NCBI GenBank assembly: GCA_900128395.1
Contig: LT649280.1
Location: forward strand, 1 to 46,326
Source of the DNA: Stramenopiles sp. TOSAG23-2
Taxonomy: Eukaryota
Direction: 5' to 3'
DNA length: 46,326 bases
In this document: positions 20,409 through 41,148 of the stretch, in pieces
Numbering within the stretch: the first letter of the stretch is position 1
Layout: every line of letters starts with the position of its first letter
Translations under genes and position numbers: made by a program
The notes under the pieces: model-generated
Told to the model about the DNA's origin: nothing
Seen by the model: only the letters and a program-made list of their open reading frames with translations
Databases searched by the model: none

Positions 20409-23400
20409 TCATTTTTTTCCTGTTGAAATATATGAAGAAGTCGTTGTACGACTTCCATTTTCTTCTCCTTCTCCACCACTATCACTACTGTAACTGCTTC
20501 TACTTTCACTTCCACTTCCGGTACTATAACTAGAACCGGAACTACTATAACTGCTATAAGATGACTCGGAACTATACGCATCGTGACTTTCATCACTTGA
20601 ACCATCGGAATTTGGATGATGGTCTGTTAATGTCAACGTTTGATGAAGCAAGATTAAGCCTTCAGAATCATGCACTACATCTCTTGCATGTGTAGAGCCA
20701 GCATTACGATGCCCATCTCCATGAAAATGACATTCATTCAATTCATAAAAAGCTGGAATATCATGATCAGCTTGAGTTTCCAATTTCTTCCTTGTCGGAC
20801 TATGCCGCACTGGACTTTGTGGTCCTTCTTCATCATCAGCATCACCATCTTCAAGTAAACTGCTTTCTCTCCTCTCTACTTGTCTTTTATACTCTTGCAC
20901 ATCTAGTCCGTGTAGCGCAGAGTCGCGTTTTGGCAAAGTGAATCCCTCCACGGGTTGAAACATTGTCGAACGACGACGTTCTAAGTCACGTTGTTGTTTT
21001 TTGATATTTTTCTCTCGTTGTTTCTCAATTAAACGACGGAATTTTTTTGGTAAGTTGTTCATAATTTCATCTCTAAATCCTGCTTGTATATCATCTTGAT
21101 TTCCAAATGTCATCACACGACCAGATTGCATTGCCACTGTGGTATATGTTTCTCCAGCTGATACTGCTCCAGGGATATGATCCAGATTTAACGTTACATA
21201 ATGCCGGTATAAATCTCTTGCACCTTTAAAAACAAGGTCATACACCAATTTCATCAACTTTGGTACGTGCCATTTCGTCTTTCGTACAATATCTTTATTT
21301 TCATGATGAAAATTTTGCATCAGTTCTAATATGACTTCCGTAGTAGTTGGGAAAATTGACGTAAATGCTTTAGCCATTTTTACCCCAGTGGCAACGATCG
21401 ATGTTTTCATTAATACTTGCAATTCATATGATGCTTGTAGACGATATAATTTTAAGTAATGTTTCCGTGTTTTTTCTTGAATAAAAGTGCGAATACTTTT
21501 GAACAATCTTTTTTTCCTTTTTTCATGTTCTTGCCTTAATGCAATTTTTAACTTTGAAGTGTCCCGCTTTCTTTTGTGTTGCTTTTCAAAAATTTCATCT
21601 AGTTCCTTCGCCCAACTTTTTAAATGGTATTTACAATTTGATCTGCAAAAATTTTTAAATTTTGGAACTGACATAGGCTCGTGTGTTTTTAATGATGCGA
21701 TTAATTTATCGGTCAAGTCAACATCGCAATCGACCGCTCTCCATTTTAATTCATCTTCTGCGGATATAACCGACTCTCGAATTTGTATATTTTGCAAAAG
21801 GTAAATTGGCCTATACGCCCTGTAACCACATATCATGCATGTTGCAGTGTCTGAATCGCGTTTTCTAAATATTAACTCTTCATGACAATTCATGCATTGG
21901 GCATGTAATGACGATTGAGGTTTCTCCGGCTTTATTTTTTCATAATAATCTGTTTCAGTCACTCGCTTCAACTGATGCTGCGCGGTTTCCATAAAATAAT
22001 TGGCAGATCGATATGATAAAAAATTTCGTCTTAAATCAATATTCATGATACAAGGAAATTCTTTCAATGCCTCGCACAACGCATGTACATGCACATCAGT
22101 CAATCCCTTTTTATACAAATTTATAGTGCCAGCTGCCCACAATTGATTTTTTGCAAATCCTTTCTTTTTTCCTGTTTTAGGATCTTCGACTTTTGGATCA
22201 TCATCTCTTATATATTCTAATATGTATTCATATTTGTTTTTTGGCAAGCCTTCGTCTTCAAATTTCTGTTTTAATAATTCAATAAACATCTCGCCAGCTT
22301 CTTCATCCATCAAATGTTGCTTCTTTTGACAAAATACTTTAACATACATCCTATGAAAAAAATGCTCTGCTAAAAGACTTTTGCGTAAATTCTCTCCTAT
22401 GTATTGCATAAAATCTTCTTTCTCTACATCTGCTGTCGTATTTCCAGCTATAGTCGTAGCAAGTTTATCCAGTGTCCAATCTGATGCCCATATATGTGCT
22501 AGTTTTAACACTTTGCCAAAACCAAGTGCGTTCATCCTTCCCCTATTTCCCCTATCCTCTTTGTTCCACATACGTCTCACCTCAATCATTCTTGATTCAA
22601 ATAAACATTCTCCTCTTATTTCAAGAAACTCTTCAATAAAGTCTTTTGGGATCTTATTTCCTGCCACTTTAAATGCAGGATCTTCTCCTAAATCGTACAC
22701 TGCTGTGTAATTAGTTTCCAATTCTGGCTCTTTTGTAGCCATAGCTTTGAAAGTATCTTTAAAATTCCCTTGCCAAACTTTGTCGGTCTTTTTCAATCTT
22801 TTTTTTAAATATTTTACTATCGATGGTACATGTTGCCTTGAGGCTGTCATATGACCCATCCTTCCATTGTATCCTGATTCACCAACACCATACATTTTCC
22901 CTCTCTTCGTAACAAATACAGAGTGTTTTCCCCCTGCTGCGACCCGCCACACATGCTTTGTCTCAGCAAAAGCACCTGTGTTTACAAGTTGTGGGACATT
23001 ATATTTATTGCTTTTATCTCTGTTATTTCTTGGACTTTTAGGACTGCCGGGACTATTACTGCCTTTTTTTTTTCTCCTTTTGCTTTTTCTAGAAGATTTG
23101 CCTGTGCTACTTGTATTAGGTCTTGATGGAGAATTAATTTCTAATAGTGCTTCTTGCCCAGGACATAGAACACCTAACTGTGAATACCTATTCGAACCAA
23201 AAGCAAAAACTTTACCATCTTCCGTACATACTACTGTATGTTCTGCACCACATGCAACATCTGTGACTTCCATTTCCGCTAATCCATCTACAATAGTCAT
23301 ACTTGCACTATCTTTATATTCACCTAATCCTAATTGACCCATGTCTCCCCGACCGCAAGTAAAAATATCACCAGTTTCTGTTATTGCAGCCGTATGATAA

Positions 23401-24362
23401 GCACCCAATGCTACATGTGACACTAATACCTGTTGGAGTGAAAGAATTATTTTTGGTTCCATTTTGCTATCGGCATTTCTCCTTGTTGCCTCCGTATGCA
23501 TATCTGGAACTAATCCATGTCCGCATTGCCCATATGAATTATCCCCCCACGTCCAAATTGTACCATCCTCACTTAACACTGCGGTATGTAAATATCCTGC
23601 GCTTACACATACTGGTGCGATTTCGACAGAATTTTTAACTAATGTCGGTTTGCATAGACGTGATGGCCGGCAATATCCCACCCCAAGCTGTCCAATATCA
23701 TTTTTTCCCATTGAAAATACATAACGATCATGTGGTCTACTTATAACGCATGAATGTGCTAAACCAGCAGCAACATCTATTACAAATACATCTCTTAGTG
23801 ATCCTATAACAGTAGGAGCTGCCACATTTTTAAAATGATTATGCCCCAGTTGACCATCCTTCCCTCTACCGAAACTTAAGCAAACTCCTTGATCTGTACA
23901 AACTAATGTATGTTGGAATCCCGTGCTAATTTTTGTTACTCGATATGGACGAAGTGCCTCCGAGTAAAGTGGCATAAATGTACTTAACGCATTAGATGCT
24001 TTTGCTAGAACAGTCCCATCTCTTAATGTTTGACCATCACCATCTTCTTCATCATCTAATCCGAGAGCACGGGGTGGTGGAACGATTTTTGGTTTGTGTG
24101 TTGCTAAATGCTTCTTCGCCATTGTACCACATTTAATACCTCGCAAAATACGTTCTCTCTCCCATCCACTTTCTTCTATCCTAACTTCTTGTCGTCTCTC
24201 CCAAATTCTATTTTCTCTATCTTCCCATAGCATTTCCATAAAAGCTTTTTTCTTTAGTTTTTTCATATACGCTTTCTTTTTTCTAATGCGTTTATTCCTC
24301 GCAGCTTTTTCCTCCGCCTCCCTTCTAATTTGTTTTTTCGATTTTTCTCCGAATCCCAACAT
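20409..24362 (-). CDS. RCC1-repeat protein with large internal insert (EF-hand-like, LRR-like, CxxC-CxxC) and Ser-rich tail
   Basis: Six consecutive RCC1 repeats (e.g. VSAGYLHTAVLSEDGTIWTWGDNSYGQCG) and a seventh (AVSAGETYTTVAMQSGRVMTFGN) near 21100-21180. Confidence 0.85.
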   Translation of the reverse strand: MLGFGEKSKKQIRREAEEKAARNKRIRKKKAYMKKLKKKAFMEMLWEDRENRIWERRQEVRIEESGWERERILRGIKCGTMAKKHLATHKPKIVPPPRALGLDDEEDGDGQTLRDGTVLAKASNALSTFMPLYSEALRPYRVTKISTGFQHTLVCTDQGVCLSFGRGKDGQLGHNHFKNVAAPTVIGSLRDVFVIDVAAGLAHSCVISRPHDRYVFSMGKNDIGQLGVGYCRPSRLCKPTLVKNSVEIAPVCVSAGYLHTAVLSEDGTIWTWGDNSYGQCGHGLVPDMHTEATRRNADSKMEPKIILSLQQVLVSHVALGAYHTAAITETGDIFTCGRGDMGQLGLGEYKDSASMTIVDGLAEMEVTDVACGAEHTVVCTEDGKVFAFGSNRYSQLGVLCPGQEALLEINSPSRPNTSSTGKSSRKSKRRKKKGSNSPGSPKSPRNNRDKSNKYNVPQLVNTGAFAETKHVWRVAAGGKHSVFVTKRGKMYGVGESGYNGRMGHMTASRQHVPSIVKYLKKRLKKTDKVWQGNFKDTFKAMATKEPELETNYTAVYDLGEDPAFKVAGNKIPKDFIEEFLEIRGECLFESRMIEVRRMWNKEDRGNRGRMNALGFGKVLKLAHIWASDWTLDKLATTIAGNTTADVEKEDFMQYIGENLRKSLLAEHFFHRMYVKVFCQKKQHLMDEEAGEMFIELLKQKFEDEGLPKNKYEYILEYIRDDDPKVEDPKTGKKKGFAKNQLWAAGTINLYKKGLTDVHVHALCEALKEFPCIMNIDLRRNFLSYRSANYFMETAQHQLKRVTETDYYEKIKPEKPQSSLHAQCMNCHEELIFRKRDSDTATCMICGYRAYRPIYLLQNIQIRESVISAEDELKWRAVDCDVDLTDKLIASLKTHEPMSVPKFKNFCRSNCKYHLKSWAKELDEIFEKQHKRKRDTSKLKIALRQEHEKRKKRLFKSIRTFIQEKTRKHYLKLYRLQASYELQVLMKTSIVATGVKMAKAFTSIFPTTTEVILELMQNFHHENKDIVRKTKWHVPKLMKLVYDLVFKGARDLYRHYVTLNLDHIPGAVSAGETYTTVAMQSGRVMTFGNQDDIQAGFRDEIMNNLPKKFRRLIEKQREKNIKKQQRDLERRRSTMFQPVEGFTLPKRDSALHGLDVQEYKRQVERRESSLLEDGDADDEEGPQSPVRHSPTRKKLETQADHDIPAFYELNECHFHGDGHRNAGSTHARDVVHDSEGLILLHQTLTLTDHHPNSDGSSDESHDAYSSESSYSSYSSSGSSYSTGSGSESRSSYSSDSGGEGEENGSRTTTSSYISTGKK

Positions 24363-25125
24363 CTTTCAAGGTTATTATTATATACTATGATGAGTCACGT
24401 CAAAAATGAAAAAGAAAAATTTGTACCTGTCACGTTCTGCGGCCGTGCAGTATTAAAAGTTCAATACTAGGGTGGAAAAAGTATTGTAACGTTATGCCTT
24501 TATTATATCAAGTCAAGTAACATATAAATATTGTATTTCTTCTTGTGAGGTATGAAGTTTTTATATGGTATCTATAGTTATATATATTCATATGTTGAAA
24601 ATAATAATAATAAAAAAAAAAATGTAGACCAGTAGAGTAATAGGTGAATGTATTATTATGTTTGTTGTTGTATAAATTATTTGTATCCGGGTGACCGTTG
24701 GTTCCAAAAAATGCGAATTCCTTCTGATATTTCTTTTCACATTAGCTATTTCAATATACCGTAGAATAAATTTGGTATATTTTCGTTTGACACCAGCCTT
24801 TTTTTTTTTGTAATAAAAATTTGCGCGTGAATATTGTATTATACTAAAGTCTAGTAATTATACTCTTTTTACAGTAATGTTCCTATATAACAACCAGCCT
24901 ATTTTTTTGGTTTAGGTTTTAGTTTACCAGCAGTTTATGTTTAGTGCTTTAGTAGGTTGTTGTTGAAATAATAATAATTCATAATAATAAACAACAATAA
25001 TACAATAATATAAAAAATGCAATTTACATATTATATATAGAACTATATTGGATGGAACAAATAAAAGTCGTATGACCATTGTATTATATATTTACGTGAT
25101 TACCTGTATTTACTTTTTTATTAAC

Positions 25126-26574
25126 ATGCCATTACATAAAAAAAAATCACGTTGGACGAAAGAAGCCCGTGAAGCTAGATTAAAAAAACATAATTCTGTA
25201 CAATTTCATAGTGCCGCGAAACACTTTCCACAATTACTAGAGTGTTTCGACAATGGAGAATCTGTAACGCCTGGAATAACACATGATGGTTGCGTTGTTC
25301 TGCCAACGTTTCTATCGTTGCATGAGAGAAAAGTAAAAGCATTGAAAACTAACCAAAAATTTACTGCATTAAAAGAGACTGAAACTGATAAATCATCGCC
25401 AAAAAAATCAAAGAAACCGTTTATACGAGAATTTTCGAAAAATTTAACTTCCTCCGTTTTAGATGAAATTCAGACCTTGTCAAAGTTTAGACATGACGTG
25501 ATATTTAAGAACGAATTAAATCAAAGCGATTATAAAGGTGCTCACCAACTTCATTTTGAAGATGAAGAGGAGCTATCAGATGCAAAATTACAAAGAAAAG
25601 TTCTGTTTCACATACGAAAAGTAGCTGAAATGAAACAAGTCACTGGGGATTTAAATTTATCAAGTTTTGAAGGTGAAGCTATGCTGCCAGAAGAATTTCG
25701 TCGATTATTTAAACTCGCATTGCATATAGGTTTAAATGATAGACAATTGAGGCTTGTTATTGAACATTTTGATAAGGATGGAGATGGAAGTGTCGATTTC
25801 ATTGAAATTCATTCTCAATTAATGCAGCCGCATCGTTTGACACAAAGTACTAAACAAAATCAAGAAGAAAAATTTCAAGAAGCAATGAAACAAATTAGAT
25901 TAAAAGCAGCTTCGCAAGTAGACCATGGAATTAATCGAATGACAGGTGAAAAAAAGAAATTTGATTTAAAATCACTTTTTGGGCATTTTGATACTGATGG
26001 CGATGGAACAGTAACAAGGGAAGAATTTTTACAATGCATGGTTGCATTAGGAATTGAATTAAATAAATTTGAATTGAATACGATATTTTGGACATTGGAT
26101 CCAGATAAATCTGGACATTTAACTTATCAAGAATTTTCTAGGGCATTTTTTGATCGTAGAAATAGAAATAAAAAGAAGCCAAAACGTTTAAAACCACATT
26201 GGACTCCAAATAATGCAAGCCAAGCACGTACTCATTTTTCAGAAGGTAGAAACAATTGTGTAGCAATGGGAGCAGAATATAAACCAAAGAAAACAATGGA
26301 ATCGCTTTCGCGTCCATCTACGTCTGATAGAAGTAAAGTAATAGGGCCAGGCATATGGCATATCACTTCTAATACCGAAGCCCAAGAGTCTATGTCGCGA
26401 AAAGTATATTTACATTCAAAAACAGCTGAAGTTATAGATTTTGAGAAAACATTGACAAAAATGAAATCAGAACAAAATTTGCGACATGTATTAAATAGAC
26501 ACGAGGAGGGAAGAGATAATTGGAAGAAGAAAAATCCTGACTATAAAAAGAAGAAATATGTAATTTATATTTAA
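25126..26574 (+). CDS. EF-hand calcium-binding protein
   Basis: Probable ATG 25126 (MPLHKKK). EF loops DKDGDGSVDFIE, DTDGDGTVTREE and DPDKSGHLTYQE. Confidence 0.85.
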   Translation: MPLHKKKSRWTKEAREARLKKHNSVQFHSAAKHFPQLLECFDNGESVTPGITHDGCVVLPTFLSLHERKVKALKTNQKFTALKETETDKSSPKKSKKPFIREFSKNLTSSVLDEIQTLSKFRHDVIFKNELNQSDYKGAHQLHFEDEEELSDAKLQRKVLFHIRKVAEMKQVTGDLNLSSFEGEAMLPEEFRRLFKLALHIGLNDRQLRLVIEHFDKDGDGSVDFIEIHSQLMQPHRLTQSTKQNQEEKFQEAMKQIRLKAASQVDHGINRMTGEKKKFDLKSLFGHFDTDGDGTVTREEFLQCMVALGIELNKFELNTIFWTLDPDKSGHLTYQEFSRAFFDRRNRNKKKPKRLKPHWTPNNASQARTHFSEGRNNCVAMGAEYKPKKTMESLSRPSTSDRSKVIGPGIWHITSNTEAQESMSRKVYLHSKTAEVIDFEKTLTKMKSEQNLRHVLNRHEEGRDNWKKKNPDYKKKKYVIYI

Positions 26575-26783: not shown

Positions 26784-27726
26784 TTATATTTTTGATGTCA
26801 CATTTTCGTCAATAATTGTATTTTTAATAAAACCTAATTTTTCAATGTGACATTCAACAATATCACCTGGTTTTAAAAAAACAGGTGGTTTCCTTGCTGC
26901 ACCAACACCAGATGGCGTGCCGGTAAAAATCAAATCACCTGGTTTTAATGTCCATAACATGGAACAATATTGGATAATATTTTGACAATTATGAATCAAA
27001 TATTTCGTATTTGAAGATTGCATTGTTTCGCCATTTAATATACATGATAAGTCCAATGCATTTGGATCTTTTATTACATCTTTGGTTACAATCCATGGCC
27101 CAGTTGGACATGAATTATCAGGTGTTTTCCCTATAAAATGTTGTTTTGCAGGATTTTTTTTCGGTGAATGTTGATAATCCCTTGCTGTAATATCATTTCC
27201 TAACATATACCCAGCAACATAATCCAATGCATTTGATTCAGTAGCACCTTTGCAAGTTTTACCAATAACTATAACTAACTCAGATTCATAATCTAAGTGT
27301 TTGGTATATGTTGGGCGAATTATATCATCAAATGGCCCAATCAATGATGTATTGAATTTAATAAACAACGGCACTGGTGAATTAGGATCAAGTGCTGAGT
27401 TATCCATACCTGCGATTTTTGCGCCTGAATTCATAGACTCTTCAACATGGTCTTTATAATTGGCACCAGCACATATTATTTTCTCTGGATTTGTAATAGG
27501 TTGACATAATACCACACTATCCATTTTGATATGTTCACCAGAATTCATTGCTTCTTTTGCCAAGGCAATACCTTTCTCACCCATTGACAAAAATGCAAGC
27601 ATATTTGATGGAATATTTTTGTTTGTATTATTTAAATCAATAATAATATTATCATTTTTTCTCGTGTATGACACCAATTCGTTTTGTCGATAATGGATTT
27701 GATTTTTTAAATGTTATTAATCTCAT
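26784..27726 (-). CDS. FAHD2: Fumarylacetoacetate hydrolase-family protein, FAHD2-like; apparent 1-nt frameshift at 27655-27660
   Basis: PEKIICAGANYKDH, LDYESELVIVIGK, GNDITARD, GK..D..CPTGPWIVT and PGDLIFTGTPSGVG. The probable true N-terminus, MRLITFKKSNPLSTKRIGVIHEK, starts at ATG 27726 in another frame and joins NDNIIIDLN if one A is removed. Confidence 0.9.
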
Positions 27727-28357: not shown

Positions 28358-29728
28358 ATGGCATTTTTATATTCAGTTTTACCAGAAAAATATCGACCGG
28401 AAAATATACCAGATCAAAAAACATTAGCTGGATTTAGAACCCCGGCAGTTAATTTCATAACACAATATACGCAAATAAACCGTGACAATTTACCGATTCA
28501 TGAGAGTGCTTTATTATCCAAAGCATCGAAAGAAACGCTTGATAATTCTTCCACTGGTTTTGTAGTTGGTGGTGCTATTCCATTTGCATTATCTAAATTT
28601 GTTAAATTCAGGGCTGGTGTTGGAATCATACGTATGTGCGCTGGTGTAGTTGGTGCAACATTTGGAAGTTATGTTGCAGCAAAAAATACTACTGATAAAT
28701 ATATTATTACCATAATGACAACTGATAATGAAGGTGCTATGTCAAAAGGTTTACGCAATATGTTGTTTGAATATGCACCTCGGAGTGAACTATATAAATT
28801 TGTGCAACAAAAATTAAAAGCGAATGGTTTTAGTGAAGAAGCATGGGAATCAAAAGATACATTTGCAACAAAAGATGAAGAAACACAAAAATGGATAGAA
28901 GAAAATGAAAAAAATAGCAGCAAAAATAGTAATAATAATAATAATAATAATAATATTGTTGTTGATAAACTATCATCATCCTCAGAAATTGCAATACAGA
29001 ATAGTCCAAATAAGAATGCAGCATTGAATGTAAGACATGAAAAGGTACAAGAGTATAAGATGAAGAGGGATGTCAAAAGAAATGGTAGTATATCGAGTGA
29101 TACATCAATTGAATTACCAGAAACTAAAGATAATGAAGTTGCAGCTAAACGTAAGGCATATCAACATTTTTTAAAAGAAGAAAAATTAAAAGCTGGATAT
29201 GGATATAATGATAATAAAATGAGTAAGGAAGATGAAGCCAAAGTGGAGAATGCTGTCATTAGTAAATTAGCTGCATGGAATAAGGAAAGAAAAAAGCGAA
29301 AAGAAGATAGTTTGACTTATAATTTCAATTCAAGCAAGAACGATATAAGTAATGGAAGTAATAGTAACAATAATCTGGAAAATCAAGTGGAGGATAGATC
29401 TGATTTTAATGATGAAGAGGCTAGTAATAATAATACATCATTCGATTTTTTCAATACATATCTTTTTCAAAACGATGATAATAACAATTCAGATGATTCC
29501 ACTGTTGAAAATGATCATCGTGGAGAGAATAGGGAAGATACTCAACAAAGCAATAAAGGAAATATGGATACATTATCCCCTTTTGATAAATGGAAACGAA
29601 TTGATTCATATATGGATTATGGTGATACAGGTAATAGTAATAGTAAACAATCAACATTCAATACACAAAATAATAATAAGAAAAAAACAACATGGGAAGA
29701 AATAAGACATAAACATCGATTTGCATAA
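28358..29728 (+). CDS. Hypothetical protein with two Gly-rich TM helices and disordered tail; OCIA-domain-like architecture
   Basis: 456-aa ORF. TM-like GFVVGGAIPFALS and MCAGVVGATFGSYV, followed by NEGAMSKGLR. C-terminal KKTTWEEIRHKH. Confidence 0.65.
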   Translation: MAFLYSVLPEKYRPENIPDQKTLAGFRTPAVNFITQYTQINRDNLPIHESALLSKASKETLDNSSTGFVVGGAIPFALSKFVKFRAGVGIIRMCAGVVGATFGSYVAAKNTTDKYIITIMTTDNEGAMSKGLRNMLFEYAPRSELYKFVQQKLKANGFSEEAWESKDTFATKDEETQKWIEENEKNSSKNSNNNNNNNNIVVDKLSSSSEIAIQNSPNKNAALNVRHEKVQEYKMKRDVKRNGSISSDTSIELPETKDNEVAAKRKAYQHFLKEEKLKAGYGYNDNKMSKEDEAKVENAVISKLAAWNKERKKRKEDSLTYNFNSSKNDISNGSNSNNNLENQVEDRSDFNDEEASNNNTSFDFFNTYLFQNDDNNNSDDSTVENDHRGENREDTQQSNKGNMDTLSPFDKWKRIDSYMDYGDTGNSNSKQSTFNTQNNNKKKTTWEEIRHKHRFA

Positions 29729-30079: not shown

Positions 30080-32542
30080 ATGATTTCTTTCATGCAAAAA
30101 ACATCCATGATACGGCGGAATCATCGTCATATTAATAATTTTTTAAAAAGTAATAATAATACTAATTATATTAATAATAATAATAATAATAAATTCAAAT
30201 GTAAGAACAAAACATATCAATTCTTCTCATCATCATCATCCCATATAGATTTGGATCACAGCGCTAAAATCCAATTAAAAGCATTACGACAAGCAATGCA
30301 AGGAAAAGGAAAATTCGAAGAGTTAGGAATTGGAGGACTAGACGATTTATTAAATAATATATTTCAACGTACTTTTGCATCTAGAATGTTGCCACCAGAT
30401 ACAATTGATAAATTAAACCTTTCTCATACAAAAGGAATGTTATTGTACGGTCCACCCGGAACGGGTAAAACTTTATGCGCTAGGCAAATAGGATTTTTAT
30501 TGGGTGCGCGTACACCAACACATATAAATGGCCCGGAAATATTTAGCTCTCCTGTAGGTGAAAGCGAAGAGGCAATTCGAAGTATATTTAAAGCAAGTGA
30601 AAGAGAGTGGAGAATGCAAGGTAATAAGTCTCCATTACATGTAATAATCTTTGATGAAATTGATGCTATATGTAAAAGACGTGATGCATCTATGGCTAGT
30701 GGGCGTTCACGCGTACATGACAATGTGGTGAACCAACTCTTGACTAAGATCGACGGGTTACAACGTCAAAACAATTTATTAGTGATCGGGGTAACCAATC
30801 GAAAGGATTTATTAGATGAAGCATTGCTTCGTCCGGGACGGCTTGAAGTTCATGTTGAAATAGGATTGCCAGATGAGAAAGGACGTGAACAAATTTTACA
30901 GATTTATACTCGTGATTTAGTGAAGGAAGATATGTTGGAAGATGATGTAAAATTAACTACGTTGGCAAAATTGACTGTTGGGTTTACAGGTGCTGAAATT
31001 GAAGGTTTAGTACGATCATCTGTAGCATATTCCCTTGCGGAGCAACAATCAAAGTTAACAGTAAATGCAAATACTATAGGCGATAATGATGAAAATGACA
31101 ACAATGAAACAAATGATGTAGATGAGTTTTTACAAAATCAATTAAAAGCAAAAGTTGGAATGAAGCATTTTAGAAAGGCAATTGAGGAAATTGAGCGGCC
31201 GGCAGCATTGGGGGGAGCACATGGTTCATTACCCATACCAAATTTTAAATTTGGAAAAACAAAACGAACATCGCTTGGGTATCAATTAGTTGAAAAAGAG
31301 TTGATACAAACTATTGAAATAGCAAAAGCAAATGCTAATTTGGGAAAGGATCCTAATAATAATGTTGATATGACTACTACTACTATTGATAATAATAATA
31401 ATAAAATGGATAGTAAGAATCAACAAAAAATACCTTCATCCATCTTGTTAACAGGGAAGGATAATGTTGGTAGAATGACTATGATTTCAGAAATTGCTGC
31501 AAATTCAAGCTTTGAATTTGTACGGGTAGTCAAACCACGTGCACTGGTTGGCATGTTGCCATCTCATGCACAAGAATATATTATAGGTGCATTTACTGAT
31601 GCACAGCGCGCACCATTTTCATTATTAGTATTAGAAGATTTAGATACATTAATAGATATGTGCGGAGAGGAACTGGAAACCATTTTATATTCCTTATTGA
31701 CATGTAAAACGGAAAACAATTGTGAATTAGTTGTAGTTGGTCTTTGTCCTGAAAATAAAATAGAACAACATATATCGCGTGGTTTTCAAAAACATTTACA
31801 AATGCCTGGTGTGGATCATAATGAAACCATTTCGTTCTTATTAAATTCAAATGTATGTGGTAATAGTTATGAAAATGCAGAAATAATGGCAATTACAGAA
31901 AATAATAGTAATAATGATGGTAGTTTTCTAGCATTAAACAACATGGTTGAAGGAATCCTTTTCGATGCGAAAAATAATGATATAACACAAGGAAGTGGTA
32001 AGGAAGATGGTGTGTTGGAAAGATTTAAACTGCCAACAAATATGACACCTGAACAACAAGAGATTTATGATGATATTGCTAGAACTAGAACTACAGGTGT
32101 TAAAGGTCCGTTTGGACCATGGCTTGCAAATCCTGCCCTTGCTCAACCTGCACAAACGCTTGGCCGTGTATGTAGATATGAAACATCGTTTTCACTTATG
32201 GAATCTGAATTAATAATTCTCATGACAGCAACTTATTTCAAATCATCAACGGAATGGGAAATTCATGTTCATGAAGCACGTCGTGCAGGTTTACGTGAAG
32301 ATATTATTGATGCAATTGCAAAGCAAGAAAAACCTGTCTTTAATGAAGACGAAAAAACTTTATCTGCGTTACATACGTTTGTCCGTGACTTATTAATTAA
32401 TTCAAAAGTTTCTAATCATTCATATAAACAATTAAAAGAAGCATATGATGGTGATGAGACACCAATAGTTGAAACTGTTGGTATTGTTGGTTATTATACT
32501 TTAGTAGCTTATACATTAAATACGTTTGAGATAGAGCCTTGA
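30080..32542 (+). CDS. NSF/Sec18-like AAA+ ATPase (no N-domain, degenerate D2) fused to C-terminal carboxymuconolactone decarboxylase/AhpD-like domain
   Basis: NSF D1 signatures GIGGLD...IF.R.FASR, GPPGTGKT, NGPEI, LHVIIFDEIDAICK.R, VHD.VVNQLL.KIDG and LLRPGRLEV. CMD-like tail MTPEQQEIYD...GPFGPWL.NP...ELIIL...EW..H...AGL...GIVGYY.LV...LN.F. Confidence 0.87.
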   Translation: MISFMQKTSMIRRNHRHINNFLKSNNNTNYINNNNNNKFKCKNKTYQFFSSSSSHIDLDHSAKIQLKALRQAMQGKGKFEELGIGGLDDLLNNIFQRTFASRMLPPDTIDKLNLSHTKGMLLYGPPGTGKTLCARQIGFLLGARTPTHINGPEIFSSPVGESEEAIRSIFKASEREWRMQGNKSPLHVIIFDEIDAICKRRDASMASGRSRVHDNVVNQLLTKIDGLQRQNNLLVIGVTNRKDLLDEALLRPGRLEVHVEIGLPDEKGREQILQIYTRDLVKEDMLEDDVKLTTLAKLTVGFTGAEIEGLVRSSVAYSLAEQQSKLTVNANTIGDNDENDNNETNDVDEFLQNQLKAKVGMKHFRKAIEEIERPAALGGAHGSLPIPNFKFGKTKRTSLGYQLVEKELIQTIEIAKANANLGKDPNNNVDMTTTTIDNNNNKMDSKNQQKIPSSILLTGKDNVGRMTMISEIAANSSFEFVRVVKPRALVGMLPSHAQEYIIGAFTDAQRAPFSLLVLEDLDTLIDMCGEELETILYSLLTCKTENNCELVVVGLCPENKIEQHISRGFQKHLQMPGVDHNETISFLLNSNVCGNSYENAEIMAITENNSNNDGSFLALNNMVEGILFDAKNNDITQGSGKEDGVLERFKLPTNMTPEQQEIYDDIARTRTTGVKGPFGPWLANPALAQPAQTLGRVCRYETSFSLMESELIILMTATYFKSSTEWEIHVHEARRAGLREDIIDAIAKQEKPVFNEDEKTLSALHTFVRDLLINSKVSNHSYKQLKEAYDGDETPIVETVGIVGYYTLVAYTLNTFEIEP

Positions 32543-33130: not shown

Positions 33131-33436
33131 ATGGCGGATCAAAAAGAAGATGATGAATTGGGAAAATTTAAAATTATATTCAATGAAATGGAACCGGATA
33201 TGAATGAGTTTATGATGGAAACGGTTAGTGGAGCAATGAGGTTGCATTTAAAAGGTGAATTAAAAAGTTATAACGACGTTGCAGGTCAAGTGAAAAAACA
33301 ATTTCAAGAAAAATATAATGGCGCGTGGCATGTAATAGTAGGTGCACAGTTTGGATCCTTTGTTACGCATGAAACAACTACCATAGCGTATGTCAATTTA
33401 CTCAAAACGTATTTTTTAATCTTTAAACATGGTTAA
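33131..33436 (+). CDS. Dynein light chain type 1 (LC8-family) protein
   Basis: 101 aa. VAGQVKKQFQEKYNGAWHVIVGAQFGSFVTHE...FLIFKHG. Confidence 0.9.
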   Translation: MADQKEDDELGKFKIIFNEMEPDMNEFMMETVSGAMRLHLKGELKSYNDVAGQVKKQFQEKYNGAWHVIVGAQFGSFVTHETTTIAYVNLLKTYFLIFKHG

Positions 33437-33714: not shown

Positions 33715-35403
33715 TTAACGCAAACCAACTTCTTTTTCTATTAACGCTAAACCAACTTCTTCATCATCATCATCTGATACTTTATTTCGATTTCGTTCAT
33801 TGACTAACCATTGTTCTCGTTTACCATTTTCTATTGCATATATACGTTTTTTACTCCAATATTTCCAAACAAAACCAACAATAGCACATATTAAAACGGT
33901 TGGATAAAATCCATCAAATAAAATTGTCGTTTTTTTACTTCCATCATCTAATATTTCATTTGATTTCGTAGTAAATGAATCTACAAGGAAATATACCAGT
34001 GTTGTTGGCCATTTAAATGCTAAATTCGCTACTGTATTTAACAATGTCATGTATGTACCACCTAATCTTGGATCACTAATTTTCGCAAAAAGTCCAACTT
34101 GTCCTAAAAACATAGCAGTGGCTATGATTGAGATAGCAATATATAATACAATGATTGCAATATAATACCATAATGGTAATGGTAACTTTGCATCTGGATT
34201 TGGTGTTGGTGTATTGTAAATCAAACCTGCAAATAAAACATAAAGTATGATACGTGGTACATATAATTCAGTAAATAATGCAAATGGTTTTTTTCCAGCA
34301 GTTCGTTTTGCGATCACACCTGGTAAAAAAATACTAATCAATCCGATAATTGTTCCAATCGTAGCCATATGCTCTTTTGGCATACCTTTTGATTGGAGTT
34401 TTAAACCAGCAATTGCATCACCTGGTGCAAATGCAACTTTACTTAGAAATATGACAAAGCATAAGCTTTGTACTGCTGGTAAGCGAAATATATTCCACAT
34501 TTCAACATATGCCTCTTTAACACTTGGTATTGATGGTGCTGGTTTTTCAACTTTGAACATCGCAATTAAAATCGTTGTTATTATAAATAAAAATCCCCAT
34601 GCACGCATATTCCAACCAATCGTTGCCACTTTGTATGAATTTAACACTAAAAATCCAACAAAAGACAACATGTTTCCCAATGTTTGTCCAGCTGCATTAC
34701 ATGTTGCTGCATATCCAACATTTTCTTTTTTTAACATGGTTAATGCCCATCCATCCACTGCAATATCTTGCGTAGCGCATAGAAAGAACAAGGTGAAAAA
34801 AATACCAGTTAAAAATGTGATATCAAAATCATCTCCTGTTTGATTTGGATCCATTAACGTATCAACAGAAGCACTGCTTGCAATCATGACAATGCCAATA
34901 AGCAATTGAGTAGGCACTAACCATGTTTTACGTTGTCCCCATGAATGCATAAATAAAGCATCTACTATTGGTGCCCATAATAATTTTAACGAAAATGGCC
35001 AACTAGCAAAACTAAATTTACCTTGTACAGACATAGATACTTTACGTTCTTCCAATAACATTGGTATAGCGGCAGAGATACCCATTGGTACACCTTGCAA
35101 TGTATATAGTAATAATAATAAACATATATTCATGTAATCGCCTTTTAATGACGATGAAGCAGTCTTCGATGCCTTTGTCATGGCCTTGTTCTTCATTTTC
35201 TTCTTTGTTTTTGAAGGGGAAGAAGAAGAAGACGTAGTAGAATTTTTTTTCCGTGTTGATTTTTTCGTAGATGATGAGCGTTTTTTAAGTGCTGGTGATT
35301 TTTTTTTACTAGAAGTATTTTTTTTATTCGTTGGCGTTGAAGAAGATTGCTTATTCTTGTTTGTTCGTTTCTTGCTTGATCCTCTTATTCTCCTTGTTGA
35401 CAT
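33715..35403 (-). CDS. SLC33A1: Acetyl-CoA transporter 1 (AT-1), MFS
   Basis: LLLLYTLQGVPMG, WPFSLKLLWAPIVD, RKTWLVPTQ, ATQDIAVDGWALTML..ENVGYAATCN..GQT.G and AKISDP.LGGTYMTLLNTV.N. Confidence 0.95.
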   Translation of the reverse strand: MSTRRIRGSSKKRTNKNKQSSSTPTNKKNTSSKKKSPALKKRSSSTKKSTRKKNSTTSSSSSPSKTKKKMKNKAMTKASKTASSSLKGDYMNICLLLLLYTLQGVPMGISAAIPMLLEERKVSMSVQGKFSFASWPFSLKLLWAPIVDALFMHSWGQRKTWLVPTQLLIGIVMIASSASVDTLMDPNQTGDDFDITFLTGIFFTLFFLCATQDIAVDGWALTMLKKENVGYAATCNAAGQTLGNMLSFVGFLVLNSYKVATIGWNMRAWGFLFIITTILIAMFKVEKPAPSIPSVKEAYVEMWNIFRLPAVQSLCFVIFLSKVAFAPGDAIAGLKLQSKGMPKEHMATIGTIIGLISIFLPGVIAKRTAGKKPFALFTELYVPRIILYVLFAGLIYNTPTPNPDAKLPLPLWYYIAIIVLYIAISIIATAMFLGQVGLFAKISDPRLGGTYMTLLNTVANLAFKWPTTLVYFLVDSFTTKSNEILDDGSKKTTILFDGFYPTVLICAIVGFVWKYWSKKRIYAIENGKREQWLVNERNRNKVSDDDDEEVGLALIEKEVGLR

Positions 35404-36542: not shown

Positions 36543-37136
36543 TTATACCTGCATGGCAAAAAAAGATATTAACAGAGTGAAGAATAATGATGCAGCAGTT
36601 GATGACACTGCCGCTTTACCACTATCCAAGGCGGCAGGCGATGGTGCACCATCGCCTGCTGCCTTGCAATCCCAAGTGCCGTTCTTGTAAGCCACGAGCT
36701 TTTCTGCGTCGGTTAACGAGTCAGACATCAACGAGCAAGGGCGTGGTTCCTCCATAGTAGCACAAGTTAACCAGTAATACGATTGCGAGCCACTATTGGG
36801 AGCAGTACACCACGTCATCTTCGACTGTGCCTCGGTGAGTCCTAGACAACAGCATTTGGGTGATGTTATACCATTGTCATTGTCCGTTGTGAGCTCCGCT
36901 GCACTTACATCAGGGTACTTTTCCTTGCACGCGTCCTTGCATCCGTCCATAGTGGCAGGTAGAAACGTCCATTTGGCCTTACCGCCATTAGTAGTACTAT
37001 TGCAATCTTCATATAATGTGTCAGCTAAATGAGCTTCGACGGGCACAGGCCAGCTTTCAGTTACCCCCAGGCCCGGCATCGCTGCTGATGTCGCATGTAT
37101 GCATACTATTAAAATTGTTAAAGCAAATATTTTCAT
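36543..37136 (-). CDS. Small Cys-rich secreted, probably GPI-anchored surface protein
   Basis: ATG 37136, signal peptide MKIFALTILIVCIHATSA, 10 Cys in the mature part, and a small-residue spacer plus hydrophobic C-tail (DSGKAAVSSTAASLFFTLLISFFAMQV). GC content is visibly higher than flanking genes. Confidence 0.75.
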   Translation of the reverse strand: MKIFALTILIVCIHATSAAMPGLGVTESWPVPVEAHLADTLYEDCNSTTNGGKAKWTFLPATMDGCKDACKEKYPDVSAAELTTDNDNGITSPKCCCLGLTEAQSKMTWCTAPNSGSQSYYWLTCATMEEPRPCSLMSDSLTDAEKLVAYKNGTWDCKAAGDGAPSPAALDSGKAAVSSTAASLFFTLLISFFAMQV

Positions 37137-37175
37137 GGTCAGCTTTTGCACTTTTATTTATAATACTAATCAAAC

Positions 37176-37491: not shown

Positions 37492-38583
37492 TTACACATA
37501 CCTCGCGTTCATTCGAGCAAGTATCGCTGCGATTTTTTTAGCTCTTTTTGGATCGGAATCATTTTTAATATTTTCATTTCGTACCTCCCGCCCATATAAT
37601 CCATCATTGCCTCTAATACATTCACTGTTTTCATAATATCTATCAGGGTGGTTTCTATCATATTCTTCAGAACAATCTAATGGTGTATTTCCATTAAAAT
37701 CAATTGCATTGATGATATCCAAAGTCGTGGATGGGTGGTTTAATAGTTGCTTCAAAACTTTTACATTACTAAAATACGCAGCGATATGCAAAACATTTTG
37801 TCCAATTCGGTTATCCGAATTCTCTTCATCACCCCATGATTCACTTTCACTGGTAGAGGATACTACAGGACTTAAGCTGGCACCATTGTTTAATAAATAT
37901 CCCATTATATCAAATTCCCAATCATCATCATGACGGACAATAGCATGCATTAACGGTGTTATTCCATCTGAACAACTTATATTTACATCCGCACCATTTT
38001 CGCATAGAAATTTTACTATTGGCATAATACAATCCCAACGAATACAATTACTAATAGCAAGTGTTAACGGTGTAAATTCAGATCGTGTCGACCCGGACAT
38101 CATGTCTTTCAAGTATACACCACCGCCAATATTTCTATCATTAATCATTTCACTTAGACTGATACCATTTAAGTCTTTATCAAGGTGATGGTGATTGACA
38201 TAAAATTTTATCGCTTCAATATCACCATTTACAATTGCAGCCATAAATGGTTTTCGAATTTGAGGGAATTGCTTTTTGTAAAATGCTTTTATGCTCAACA
38301 TTTCCTCTTCATTGGTCCGCTTCGGTTGTGACAGTTGTGTCGTTTGATTTGATTGTTTTCCAATCGTAACTTTTGGCGAAGCATTACTTTTTGAATTATT
38401 ATCACTTGAACCTTCATTGTTATTATCATTAACATCCTCTATTAATGTACCATCATCAGGTGGTAACTTAGCTGCTGCTGCTTTTAATTTTTCTGCTTCC
38501 TCATTGTATTTTTGAATATCAATTTCTTCTTGTGGGGGTAGCACTTTTCGCTTTTTTGTTGGTGATGGGTCTTGTTTCAACAT
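37492..38583 (-). CDS. Ankyrin-repeat protein with SV40-type NLS
   Basis: FTPLTLAI...IVKFLCENGADVN, GITPLMHAI...YLLNNGA, GQNVLHIAA and GNTPLD. N-terminal PTKKRKV. Confidence 0.88.
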   Translation of the reverse strand: MLKQDPSPTKKRKVLPPQEEIDIQKYNEEAEKLKAAAAKLPPDDGTLIEDVNDNNNEGSSDNNSKSNASPKVTIGKQSNQTTQLSQPKRTNEEEMLSIKAFYKKQFPQIRKPFMAAIVNGDIEAIKFYVNHHHLDKDLNGISLSEMINDRNIGGGVYLKDMMSGSTRSEFTPLTLAISNCIRWDCIMPIVKFLCENGADVNISCSDGITPLMHAIVRHDDDWEFDIMGYLLNNGASLSPVVSSTSESESWGDEENSDNRIGQNVLHIAAYFSNVKVLKQLLNHPSTTLDIINAIDFNGNTPLDCSEEYDRNHPDRYYENSECIRGNDGLYGREVRNENIKNDSDPKRAKKIAAILARMNARYV

Positions 38584-39956: not shown

Positions 39957-40162
39957 TTACTGCCCTGGTCTCCATACATGTGCTGAACTACCACCATTAT
40001 CTGTTGGATTACCTTCCTCCGCTTCTTCCTCCGCTTCTACTTCCTGTTGAGCTTCATGCTTACTGCCCTGGTCTCCATACATGTGCTGAACTACCACCAT
40101 TATCTGTTGGATTACCTTCCTCCTCTTCTTCCTCCGCTTCTACTTCCTGTTGAGCTTCATGC
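39957..40162. repeat. 103-bp tandem duplication of the 3' end of the 40060-41148 gene
   Basis: ttactgccctggtctcc at 39957 and 40060; one mismatch (cctccgctt vs cctcctctt). Confidence 0.9.
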
Positions 40163-41058: not shown

Positions 41059-41089
<31 letters not shown>

Positions 41090-41148
41090 TTATTTTTTTT
41101 TCTTTCCGGTTTTTGTTTTTTAATTAATTCATCTAATGATAAATCCAT
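40060..41148 (-). CDS. Putative RNA-binding protein: ALYREF-type N-terminal UBM, Asn/Arg-rich linker, degenerate dsRBD
   Basis: Starts MDLSLDELIK. C-terminal AIYFLRALSERKGWEEPKFE...YSVKL...DAMVSVANEALDIV follows the dsRBD alpha-beta-beta-beta-alpha pattern. Confidence 0.6.

What the first reader, a model, noticed from the sequence alone, without database searches (positions are those of the whole stretch)
30080..32542. NSF-like ATPase rewired: organelle-type presequence instead of N-domain, altered pore loop, fused CMD/AhpD-like enzyme
Seen: NSF D1 begins ~75 aa from the start, so the SNAP/SNARE-binding N-domain is absent. The leader is basic/Ser/Asn-rich, lacks acidic residues and ends FFSSSSS, like a mitochondrial presequence. 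Pore loop 1 reads SSPVGESE where NSF has NKYVGESE, so the aromatic residue is lost. The D2 Walker A is degenerate (GKDNVGRM). A complete bacterial-type CMD-family domain lacking the AhpD CxxC follows in frame from ~32020, with no intergenic-like spacer. Inference: a neofunctionalised NSF paralogue not acting in vesicle fusion, possibly a mitochondrial AAA+ scaffold or activase for the fused oligomeric enzyme. I know of no described protein with this architecture.
Basis: partly seen in the sequence, partly recalled or inferred. Interest (0 to 1): 0.75.

Follow-up and report, generated by a model that had tools for sequence, protein, structure and literature searches.

The report
NSF-derived ATPase fused to CMD domain
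A marine protist gene encodes a relative of the vesicle-fusion ATPase NSF that has lost its cargo-binding head, gained what looks like a mitochondrial address tag and, in one sub-lineage, a small enzyme-like tail, so it probably does a new and still unknown job.

Summary
ORF 30080-32542 (+) encodes 820 aa. It has an acid-free basic leader (1-56), an NSF/Sec18-type D1 with intact ATPase motifs but Pro in place of the pore-loop Tyr, a D2 with a K->R P-loop, and a C-terminal CMD/AhpD-fold domain without CxxC.

It is not a one-off or an artefact. It belongs to a small family found only in EukProt entries (one labelled MAST-4) and in unnamed ENA, JGI and NCBI records. That family holds 11 clusters at 90% identity, and two representatives plus a fragment among 1.84 billion. 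In the tree all 11 family rows group together (100/100).

Every family row lacks the N-domain, lacks a pore-loop aromatic and has GR in D2, and every row that reaches its own N-terminus starts with a basic leader, so these changes predate the fusion. Only one subclade (4 clusters, 98/93) carries the CMD domain. Elsewhere the ATPase is unfused, and close CMD homologues (45-59% identity) stand alone in other protists, several with presequence-like N-termini.

Best reading: a probably mitochondrial, D1-driven hexameric remodeller that does not act on SNAREs, with self-associating CMD domains under the D2 ring. Localisation, substrate and CMD chemistry are untested. Six literature searches found no description.

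The parts
30080..32542 (+). Whole gene: single uninterrupted ORF of 820 aa plus stop
   Evidence: Listed. An in-frame stop lies 5 codons upstream of the ATG. Orthologues with the same architecture are P0001-P0004.
30080..30247 (+). Leader, residues 1-56: basic, Asn/Ser-rich, no acidic residue, ends FFSSSSS; putative mitochondrial presequence
   Evidence: Residues 1-56 hold 9 K/R and 0 D/E. The longest hydrophobic run is 2 residues, so it is not a signal peptide. AF2 pLDDT is below 50 for residues 1-54. Identity to the orthologues is 17-24%.
30248..30325 (+). Residues 57-82: conserved helix and linker that aligns with the NSF N-D1 linker
   Evidence: It aligns to Sec18 and NSF residues before D1. 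Identity is 100% to P0002 and 65-71% to P0003 and P0004. AF2 predicts a helix at 60-73.
30326..31204 (+). D1 AAA+ module, residues 83-375: Walker A GPPGTGKT (124-131), Walker B IIFDEID, sensor TNR, Arg fingers RPGR; likely the active motor
   Evidence: Pfam AAA 2e-41 and AAA_lid_3. These motifs are identical in all 12 family rows apart from GAPGTGKT in P0005 and small changes in the flanking residues. Identity to the fused orthologues is 78-92%.
30536..30571 (+). Pore loop 1, residues 153-164, EIFSSPVGESEE: Pro158 at the position of the NSF Tyr
   Evidence: alignment. In the family this position is P in 3 rows, L in 8 and K in 1, of 12. In canonical NSFs it is Y, F or W in 140 of the 144 with a recognisable motif.
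31205..31435 (+). D1-D2 connector, residues 376-452, with a conserved helix (399-421) and an Asn/Thr-rich low-complexity insert
   Evidence: AF2 secondary structure and pLDDT dips. Residues 331-452, which include this connector, are 37-64% identical to the orthologues.
31436..31990 (+). D2 AAA+ module, residues 453-637, with the variant P-loop G459-KDNV-G464-R465-M466-T467 (nt 31454-31480); probably a non-hydrolysing ring-forming domain
   Evidence: Query 453-527 aligns to Sec18 D2 561-635 at 5.5e-09. GR is found in 12 of 12 family rows, against GK[TS] in 169 of 184 NSFs. AF2 predicts five strands plus a lid. The Foldseek match to Sec18/NSF spans D1 and D2.
31991..32029 (+). Short D2-CMD linker, residues 638-650, in frame with no stop
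   Evidence: pLDDT is below 50 for residues 637-646. The linker varies in length among the orthologues.
32030..32539 (+). CMD/AhpD-fold domain, residues 651-820, without CxxC. It keeps R699, E710, E725 and H729 (site region nt 32207-32266). A homodimer is predicted.
   Evidence: Sequence evidence. AF2 pLDDT 93.7. Foldseek 6e8l TM 0.77. Dimer ipSAE 0.92 against a best control of 0.00.

Best explanation
This is a real, conserved nuclear gene of an uncultured marine protist. The nearest named relative among the orthologues is labelled MAST-4, a heterotrophic stramenopile.

It encodes a type-II AAA+ ATPase descended from NSF/Sec18 that no longer acts on SNARE complexes.

Proposed working, with each step marked as shown or inferred:
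1. Import (inferred). The acid-free basic leader of about 55 aa directs import into mitochondria and is cut near F49|S50.
2. Assembly (inferred by analogy with NSF D2). The mature protein forms a hexamer through D2. D2's conserved P-loop, GxxxxGR[MT]T, may still hold nucleotide but probably does not hydrolyse it.
3. Motor. D1 keeps every catalytic motif (shown), so it is taken to be the ATP-driven motor (inferred).
4. Substrate grip. The pore-loop-1 aromatic is replaced by Pro, Leu or Lys (shown). The protein therefore probably does not grip substrates by the usual aromatic paddle and more likely serves a dedicated client than acts as a general unfoldase (speculative).
5. CMD tail. The C-terminal CMD-fold domains self-associate; a dimer is predicted. 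They would form a crown of three dimers under the D2 ring, or bridge two rings (inferred).
6. CMD chemistry. The domain keeps a non-thiol Arg/Glu/Glu/His site that is invariant in stand-alone eukaryotic and bacterial homologues (shown). It is therefore likely an active enzyme or ligand binder, and not an AhpD-type peroxidase (inferred).

History: the fusion arose once, inside a family whose other members are unfused. It joined two proteins that elsewhere exist separately, both apparently mitochondrial.
For: Gene is real:
- Uninterrupted 820-codon ORF.
- The same fused architecture occurs in P0001 (100% identity; 8 of the 15 listed cluster members are 811-821 aa long), P0002 (75%), P0003 (53%; 6 of 9 members are 828 aa) and P0004 (53%). 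These come from ENA, JGI, NCBI, Logan and EukProt.
- 20 of the 24 listed runs, from 14 studies, hold the stretch or part of it, including 6 RNA runs. An oligo-dT cDNA run holds 0.67 of the sampled words.

NSF descent:
- The best solved relatives are Sec18 (2.4e-98) and NSF (3.6e-94), with a second match to D2.
- The full-length model matches Sec18/NSF D1-D2 over about 540-565 columns, TM up to 0.79 when normalised by the target.

Distinct family:
- 11 of 11 family rows form one clade, UFBoot 100 / SH-aLRT 100, with a stem of 1.37 changes per site.
- Among 1.84 billion representatives only P0013 (868 bits), P0005 (833 bits) and the fragment P0240 belong to the family. The next hits score 519 bits and 468 bits or less.

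Not NSF in function:
- No N-domain.
- Aromatic pore-loop residue in 0 of 12 family rows, against 140 of 144 NSFs.
- D2 has GR in 12 of 12 family rows, against GK[TS] in 169 of 184 NSFs.

D1 is constrained: the Walker A, Walker B, sensor and Arg-finger motifs are identical in all 12 rows apart from GAPGTGKT in P0005 and small changes in the flanking residues, and D1 is 78-92% identical across the fused orthologues.

Leader:
- 0 D/E in residues 1-56.
- All 11 family leaders are basic, with 0-3 D/E in the first 40 residues and hydrophobic runs of 5 residues or fewer.
- The R-x-[FYL]-[SA] motif occurs in 5 of 11 family leaders, against 7 of 185 NSF N-termini.

CMD domain:
- 34 shorter homologues were found. 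The stand-alone eukaryotic ones are 45-59% identical.
- They include proteins from Rhynchopus, Acanthoeca, Pavlovales and Thraustochytrium sp. LLF1b. Several carry presequence-like extensions.
- Invariant residues are R699, E710, E725 and H729.
- The fold is confirmed.
- Homodimer ipSAE is 0.92 against a best control of 0.00. That mark was reached by 20 of 30 proteins solved as pairs of one chain and by 1 of 23 solved as single chains. The runs agree in at least 98% of contacts and the partner's pLDDT is at least 90. The pass may come from memory of solved CMD oligomers.
- Passages of PMC3141380 say the family mostly forms planar hexamers built of dimers.

Single fusion: the 4 fused proteins form a clade in the D1 tree (98/93) and in the CMD tree (SH-aLRT 87).
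Against: - No targeting predictor was run. The window's own leader lacks the Arg of the R-3-type motif (it reads QFFS) and is unusually Asn-rich, so it could be low-complexity sequence typical of this AT-rich genome.
- 36 of 185 canonical NSF N-termini also have 1 or fewer D/E in their first 40 residues, so acid poverty alone is weak evidence.
- The RNA evidence is only word sharing in assembled contigs.
- Seven of the 11 family clusters lack the CMD domain, and the stand-alone CMD occurs in lineages where no member of this ATPase family was found. The two parts are therefore not obligate partners.
- A canonical NSF in the same genome could not be looked for, because no genome is held.
- No ATPase activity, oligomer or CMD chemistry has been measured.
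- The window's Pro at the pore loop could also mean that D1 has lost substrate translocation altogether.
Confidence: 0.7

Rival explanations
1. Same protein, but not mitochondrial. The N-terminal 56 residues are only Asn-rich low-complexity sequence of an AT-rich genome, and the ATPase-CMD protein works in the cytosol or at another membrane.
For: The window's leader has 14 Asn in 56 residues and no R-x-[FYL]-[SA] motif. The neighbouring ORF 28358-29728 is also Asn-rich. No predictor was run and no experiment exists.
Against: Orthologues from GC-richer genomes have Arg/Ala/Ser-rich, acid-poor leaders at the same position, despite only 17-24% identity. The motif occurs in 5 of 11 family leaders, against 7 of 185 controls. 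Stand-alone CMD homologues also carry such leaders.
Confidence: 0.2
2. AAA+ activase. The ATPase ring exists mainly to remodel or activate the CMD-fold enzyme, as Rubisco activases (comparison from background knowledge) remodel their own enzyme. The fusion simply tethers the motor to its client.
For: Fusion of two proteins that are separate elsewhere suggests functional linkage. Both parts are conserved in the fused clade, D1 at 78-92% and CMD at 56-79% identity. The CMD domain is predicted to self-associate, and its family commonly forms hexamers (PMC3141380 passages).
Against: Seven of the 11 family clusters lack the CMD domain. None of the 34 shorter CMD homologues bears a gene-model name of the style carried by the unfused EukProt member P0005; this is weak evidence. 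Stand-alone CMDs occur in choanoflagellate, diplonemid and haptophyte data, where no family ATPase appeared. The CMD sits at the D2 end, away from the D1 face where NSF-type motors engage substrates (background knowledge).
Confidence: 0.25
3. Artefact: a chimeric assembly or a read-through of two adjacent genes, or a canonical NSF whose N-domain exon lies upstream.
For: None beyond the a priori possibility.
Against: The fused frame recurs in 4 clusters down to 53% identity, on many independent contigs. An in-frame stop lies 5 codons upstream of the ATG. Orthologues start at the same place with their own leaders. The N-domain profile finds nothing in the 46-kb window.
Confidence: 0.03

Closest known systems
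NSF / Sec18 (vesicle-fusing ATPase, type-II AAA+)
   Same: The tandem D1-D2 has the highest sequence similarity (Sec18 2.4e-98, NSF 3.6e-94) and the highest structural similarity. D1 has complete ATPase motifs. D2 is more divergent and plausibly structural.
   Different: There is no N-domain, so there is no SNAP/SNARE docking site. The pore-loop Tyr is replaced by P, L or K. The D2 Walker Lys is replaced by Arg. The protein adds an N-terminal leader and, in one subclade, a C-terminal CMD domain. It forms a separate clade with 100/100 support and a long stem.
AhpD / CMD family (PF02627), e.g. S. pneumoniae AhpD 6e8l, SMU.961 3lvy, PA0269 2o4d
   Same: It has the all-helical CMD fold (TM 0.76-0.77). 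The Glu and His of the proton-relay hairpin are conserved as E710 and H729. It is predicted to self-associate.
   Different: Both catalytic cysteines are absent. Cys130 corresponds to S722 and Cys133 to the invariant E725. It is not an AhpD peroxidase, and its chemistry is unknown.
Stand-alone eukaryotic CMD-like proteins (Thraustochytrium sp. LLF1b, Acanthoeca spectabilis, Rhynchopus euleeides, Pavlovales sp.)
   Same: They are 45-59% identical over the whole domain and share the invariant residues. Some have presequence-like N-termini. They fall in the same eukaryote-type group in the CMD tree (SH-aLRT 98).
   Different: They are 160-230 aa proteins without any AAA+ part. None of the 80 CMD-encoding loci fetched holds an AAA match.
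p97/Cdc48 D1 ring and mitochondrial SKD3/CLPB (background knowledge, plus the search listing only)
   Same: These are precedents for an AAA+ ring whose pore loop lacks an aromatic residue (p97 D1) and for a mitochondrial AAA+ protein with a replaced accessory domain (SKD3).
   Different: They belong to different clades of AAA+ proteins. Neither derives from NSF, and neither carries a CMD domain.

Membership tests
NSF/Sec18 (functional SNARE disassembly ATPase) | N-terminal double-psi-barrel / alpha-beta-roll N-domain that binds SNAP-SNARE | tested here: not met
   No N-domain family appears among the 15 Pfam hits. D1 starts at about residue 75-83. An HMM of 171 NSF N-domains finds 0 hits at E<=10 in the six-frame window.
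NSF/Sec18 (functional SNARE disassembly ATPase) | D1 with Walker A, Walker B, sensor and Arg fingers | tested here: met
   GPPGTGKT, IIFDEID, TNR and RPGR are present. They are identical in all 12 family rows apart from GAPGTGKT in P0005 and small changes in the flanking residues.
NSF/Sec18 (functional SNARE disassembly ATPase) | Aromatic residue in D1 pore loop 1 (YVG) | tested here: not met
   The window has PVG. The family has P, L or K in 12 of 12 rows. Canonical NSFs have Y, F or W in 140 of the 144 with a recognisable motif.
NSF/Sec18 (functional SNARE disassembly ATPase) | D2 P-loop GxxxxGK[ST] for ATP-dependent hexamerisation | tested here: not met
   The window has GKDNVGRMT, and 12 of 12 family rows have GR. 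NSFs have GK[TS] in 169 of 184 and GR in 1.
NSF/Sec18 (evolutionary lineage) | Closest similarity and tree position with NSF rather than other classical AAA clades | tested here: met
   The best PDB hits are Sec18 and NSF, ahead of VAT and Cdc48. The family groups with 29 NSFs against the Cdc48-like outgroup with 100/100 support. Its place relative to the NSFs is unresolved.
CMD family (Pfam PF02627) | Match to the family profile, and the CMD fold | tested here: met
   This copy scores below the gathering score (15.5 and 18.1 bits against 23), but 17 of 21 aligned homologues match. A profile search hits PA0269, Atu0492 and AhpD. Foldseek TM is 0.77.
AhpD alkylhydroperoxidase | Catalytic CxxC with the Glu/His proton relay | tested here: not met
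   E710 and H729 are present, but the Cys positions are S722 and E725. The relay is defined in passages of PMC3141380.
gamma-carboxymuconolactone decarboxylase (PcaC) | Match to a curated PcaC model, and the beta-ketoadipate pathway context | tested here: inconclusive
   No CMD, PcaC or AhpD model appears among the 21 NCBIfam hits at E<=0.1. The PcaC active site is not defined, according to PMC3141380. Pathway context cannot be tested in a eukaryote window.
Mitochondrial matrix-targeted proteins (presequence) | N-terminal basic, acid-poor, non-hydrophobic leader with an MPP-type cleavage motif | tested here: inconclusive
   The composition fits: 9 K/R, 0 D/E and a longest hydrophobic run of 2 residues. 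The R-x-[FYL]-[SA] motif is in 5 of 11 family leaders but not in the window's own. No TargetP or MitoFates was available.

The most novel reading that the evidence does not exclude
The NSF lineage, otherwise devoted to SNARE recycling, gave rise in a group of marine stramenopiles to an ATP-driven machine inside the mitochondrion. In one sub-lineage this machine became physically coupled to a non-thiol CMD-fold enzyme. The result would be a new class of organellar AAA+ remodeller, or of enzyme-activase fusion, with a non-aromatic pore.
Probability: 0.35. Interest if true: 0.75.

Novelty: new variant of a known kind. Interest (0 to 1): 0.6.

Why it matters
NSF is usually seen as a single-purpose ATPase (background knowledge). 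A paralogue that has shed the N-domain, the pore-loop tyrosine and the D2 lysine, yet keeps D1 under strong constraint, shows that the NSF scaffold can be redeployed.

It also offers a natural experiment on what an AAA+ ring does without an aromatic pore loop.

If the protein is mitochondrial, it adds an unrecognised AAA+ machine to the organelle of MAST-type flagellates, abundant but uncultured ocean grazers.

The one-off fusion to a CMD-fold domain gives a testable lead to the function of a eukaryotic CMD subfamily that has no known role.

Tried and rejected
- Own genome: none is held. A second, canonical NSF could not be sought.
- Metagenome scan with the CMD alignment (did not complete, one search was answered): it returned 80 loci at 36-48% identity. 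None of the 80 holds an AAA match. It therefore gave no extra fused loci and no synteny.
- Neighbours of the CMD homologues in the 50 of these loci that are at least 4 kb long: recurrent ORFs are a putative cyclase (18 loci), DUF1194 (15), LysE (13) and a GDSL-like lipase (11). ORF calling was crude and homology is distant, so I drew no functional conclusion.
- ESM Atlas: it returned only generic NSF/AAA clusters (score 0.90 or less) and added nothing.
- Outgroup: P0231 (519 bits) turned out to be a triple-AAA Cdc48-like protein. I used it only as an outgroup.
- Tree: the Phytophthora row (P0015) was badly cut by my motif rule (branch length 8.6), so its place is meaningless. P0239 was dropped because it lacked the motif. 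The origin of the family relative to stramenopile NSFs is unresolved.
- Taxonomy: taxid 87120, read from a source name, gave an implausible fungus, so I did not use it.
- Literature searches: I saw listings only, except for passages of PMC3141380. None describes an N-domain-less NSF paralogue or an AAA-CMD fusion. Supplements were not consulted.
Full report
**1. Observation**

The window is AT-rich (GC 0.24-0.41 per kb) and gene-dense, with long uninterrupted ORFs (26 of 150 aa or more).

ORF 30080..32542 (+) starts with ATG and encodes 820 aa. An in-frame stop lies five codons upstream of the ATG.

Pfam gives:
- AAA at residues 120-262 (2e-41);
- AAA_lid_3 at 289-325;
- a sub-threshold CMD match at 693-751 (15.5 bits against a cut-off of 23).

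Against solved structures the best matches are Sec18 (2.4e-98; query 45-320 against Sec18 206-478) and NSF (3.6e-94). Second, weaker stretches align query 453-527 to Sec18 D2 561-635 (5.5e-09) and query 442-579 to NSF D2.

The same alignments show the pore loop as EIFSSPVGESEE, where Sec18 and NSF have ..KYVG.SE.. . The D2 P-loop reads GKDNVGRMT, where NSF has GPPHSGKTA.

Residues 1-56 contain 9 K/R, no D/E and 14 Asn, and end in FFSSSSS.

Every factual element of the finding is therefore present at the stated coordinates.

**2. No hidden N-domain, no artefact**

- None of the 15 Pfam families at E<=0.1 is a CDC48_N or NSF_N type.
The best single tblastn hit was a 34-residue match at E 0.01, 12 kb away in another ORF.
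- The upstream ORF (28358-29728) is an unrelated Asn-rich protein without a Pfam family.
- Orthologues begin at the same point with their own leaders.

**3. It is a family**

The homologue search found 7924 proteins at E<=1e-5 among the 8000 candidates scored. Of the 120 best that it listed, the four closest are full-length relatives:
- P0001: 100% identity, 817 aa.
- P0002: 75%, 793 aa.
- P0003: 53%, 828 aa; EukProt name 'Stramenopile-MAST_4_protein_286'.
- P0004: 53%, 757 aa; JGI name 'AAA+-type ATPase/alkylhydroperoxidase family enzyme'.

It also found seven shorter relatives (P0005-7, P0009-11 and P0013; 492-690 aa; 45-50% identity).

Cluster listings show the fused length recurring on many contigs: 8 of the 15 listed members of cluster 1 are 811-821 aa, and 6 of the 9 members of cluster 3 are 828 aa. 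The shorter forms also recur at fixed lengths: 5 of the 6 members of the P0010 cluster are 555 aa, and 6 and 3 of the 15 listed members of the P0013 cluster are 521 and 543 aa. These sit on contigs longer than the ORF, so the short forms look complete and are not truncations. I could not inspect those contigs.

The alignment (A1) shows that all twelve rows share the N-domain-less start, the pore loop F-S-S-x-V-G and the D2 motif G-R-[MT]-T. Only the window and P0001-P0004 continue into the CMD domain.

A profile of A1, searched against 1.84 billion representatives, gave 868 and 833 bits for two family representatives (P0013 and P0005) and 452 bits for a 242-aa family fragment (P0240). It then dropped to 519 bits for a triple-AAA Cdc48-like protein, and canonical NSFs scored 468 bits or less. 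The family is therefore very narrow.

A maximum-likelihood tree of D1 (43 rows, 273 columns, LG+C20) gave these results:
- It places 11 of 11 family rows in one clade (UFBoot 100 / SH-aLRT 100) on a stem of 1.37 changes per site.
- The family sits with 29 NSFs, against the outgroup.
- The four fused proteins form a clade (98/93).
- The family's position relative to the NSFs is unresolved.
- One NSF row (P0015) was badly cut and one (P0239) was dropped.

**4. What changed relative to NSF**

| Feature | This family (12 aligned rows) | Canonical NSFs fetched (193) |
|---|---|---|
| D1 pore-loop aromatic position | P in 3, L in 8, K in 1 | Y, F or W in 140 of the 144 that matched my pattern (49 did not match it) |
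| D2 P-loop | GR in 12 | GK[TS] in 169 of 184; GR in 1 |

The Walker A, Walker B, sensor-1 and Arg-finger motifs of D1 are identical in all 12 rows, apart from GAPGTGKT in P0005 and small changes in the flanking residues.

Identity of the window to P0002, P0003 and P0004, by domain:

| Region | P0002 | P0003 | P0004 |
|---|---|---|---|
| D1 | 92% | 78% | 80% |
| D2 | 67% | 36% | 36% |
| CMD | 79% | 61% | 56% |
| Leader | 24% | 17% | no leader in the P0004 model |

D1 and CMD are thus the constrained parts. D2 is a conserved variant and has not simply decayed. The leader is conserved in character only.

**5. The leader**

- All 11 family leaders examined are basic and acid-poor (0-3 D/E in the first 40 residues).
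- None has a hydrophobic run longer than 5 residues, which argues against a signal peptide.
- Five of the 11 contain R-x-[FYL]-[SA] near their end, against 7 of 185 canonical NSF N-termini. I recall this as the R-3-type site of the mitochondrial processing peptidase; that is background knowledge and I did not look it up.
- The window's own leader has QFFS at the aligned place and lacks the Arg.
- 36 of the 185 controls also have 1 or fewer D/E in their first 40 residues, so composition alone is weak evidence.
- AF2 leaves residues 1-54 disordered.

Mitochondrial targeting is therefore a supported inference and has not been shown.

**6. The C-terminal domain**

A region search with residues 640-820 among shorter proteins found 34 homologues. 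Stand-alone proteins of 160-230 aa are 45-59% identical. They come from Rhynchopus euleeides, Acanthoeca spectabilis, Pavlovales sp. CCMP2436 and Thraustochytrium sp. LLF1b and from many environmental sequences. Relatives at 31-47% identity include several that JGI annotates as 4-carboxymuconolactone decarboxylase.

Alignment A2 gives the invariant residues P677, P685, Q692, G695, R699, E710, E725 and H729.

The profile hits PA0269, Atu0492 and AhpD structures. In that alignment the first AhpD/PA0269 cysteine corresponds to S722, the second to E725, the relay Glu to E710 and the relay His to H729. The relay residues are as stated in passages of PMC3141380.

Pfam CMD is matched by 17 of the 21 aligned members. 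No AhpD, PcaC or other CMD-type NCBIfam model appears among the 21 families found at E<=0.1.

The AF2 model of the domain (pLDDT 93.7) superposes on S. pneumoniae AhpD 6e8l (TM 0.77), SMU.961 3lvy (0.76) and Atu0492.

A quick CMD tree (45 rows) separates a eukaryote-type group of 31 rows, which includes the four fused domains, from 14 other rows, of which the nine metagenome loci have 53-66% GC (SH-aLRT 98). The fused domains form a clade (87). Their neighbours include the Thraustochytrium protein.

Several stand-alone proteins have presequence-like N-termini: P0195, P0198/P0217, P0188/P0218 and P0213.

Two copies of the domain are predicted to form a symmetric dimer:
- ipSAE is 0.92 against a best control of 0.00.
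- The mark was reached by 20 of 30 proteins solved as pairs of one chain, and by 1 of 23 solved as single chains.
- The runs agree in at least 98% of contacts, and the partner's pLDDT is at least 90.
- Because CMD-family oligomers are solved, this pass may reflect memory of those structures.
- The interface uses the conserved C-terminal GYY...TLN helix.

PMC3141380 (passages only) reports that family members mostly form planar hexamers built of dimers. That geometry would fit under a hexameric AAA+ ring. This last step is my inference.

**7. Whole-protein anatomy**

AF2 on a 57-row alignment gave mean pLDDT 83.1:

| Residues | Feature |
|---|---|
| 1-54 | disordered leader |
| 60-73 | helix |
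| to about 375 | D1 |
| 399-421 | conserved helix |
| to 452 | low-complexity insert |
| 453-637 | D2: five strands and a lid |
| 637-646 | low-confidence linker |
| 657-815 | CMD helices |

Foldseek with the whole model returns Sec18/NSF chains over about 540-565 columns, with TM up to 0.79 when normalised by the target.

**8. Expression and occurrence**

Of 24 runs listed, 20 from 14 studies hold the stretch or part of it. Fifteen hold half or more of its words. Two may be the source of this DNA. Six are RNA runs, with shares of 0.25-0.67; the highest is an oligo-dT cDNA library.

Transcription of the fused junction is therefore likely but has not been shown.

**9. Mechanism and rivals**

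My best reading (confidence 0.7 for the package, about 0.65 for the mitochondrial part) has four parts:
- an imported, D1-driven ring held together by a non-hydrolysing D2;
- no action on SNAREs;
- substrate contact that does not depend on an aromatic paddle;
- in the window's subclade, self-associating CMD domains with a non-thiol Glu/Glu/His/Arg site.

Whether the CMD domain is a coupled enzyme, a client or an adaptor is open.

The activase idea (0.25) is weakened because 7 of the 11 family clusters lack the CMD domain, and because stand-alone CMDs occur where no family ATPase was found.

A non-mitochondrial location (0.2) is not excluded. Artefact or a missing exon (0.03) is nearly excluded.

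**10. Novelty**

Six full-text searches (listings only, except for passages of PMC3141380) gave no description of an N-domain-less NSF paralogue or of an AAA-CMD fusion. Supplements could not be read and might list the gene in MAST genome papers. Automatic annotations of the orthologues do exist.

I rate it a new variant of a known kind, with interest 0.6.

Noticed in passing
window 20409-24362 (-), 25048-26574 (+), 26784-27677 (-), 33131-33436 (+), 33715-35403 (-), 37492-38583 (-): The neighbouring genes are ordinary eukaryotic genes in long intron-free ORFs: an RCC1-repeat protein (1316 aa), an EF-hand protein, an FAA hydrolase, dynein light chain LC8, an acetyl-CoA transporter and an ankyrin protein. 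This points to a compact, AT-rich protist genome.
   Followed up: partly
window 28358-29728 (+): A 456-aa Asn/Ser-rich ORF lies directly upstream on the same strand. It has no Pfam family at E<=1e-5. The ORFs at 36543-37151, 40060-41148 and 41873-43345 also have no Pfam family.
   Followed up: no
loci L006-L080 (metagenome contigs holding CMD homologues at 36-42% identity): Within 3 kb of the CMD homologue, a 'Putative cyclase' (PF04199) ORF recurs in 18 of the 50 loci of 4 kb or more. DUF1194 recurs in 15, LysE in 13 and a GDSL-like lipase in 11. ORF calling was crude, but this may be a lead to the chemistry of this CMD subfamily.
   Followed up: partly
proteins P0195, P0198/P0217, P0188/P0218, P0213: Stand-alone CMD homologues from Acanthoeca, Thraustochytrium sp. 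LLF1b, an MMETSP transcriptome and a Rhynchopus isoform carry Arg-rich, acid-poor N-terminal extensions of 20-57 aa. These suggest that this CMD subfamily is organellar in several eukaryote groups.
   Followed up: partly
protein P0240 (242 aa fragment): This is a further family member known only as a fragment. It has the leader MLWTRRFTSRRLFCS..., and its pore loop and D1 match the unfused subgroup. It hints at more lineages than the 11 clusters counted.
   Followed up: no
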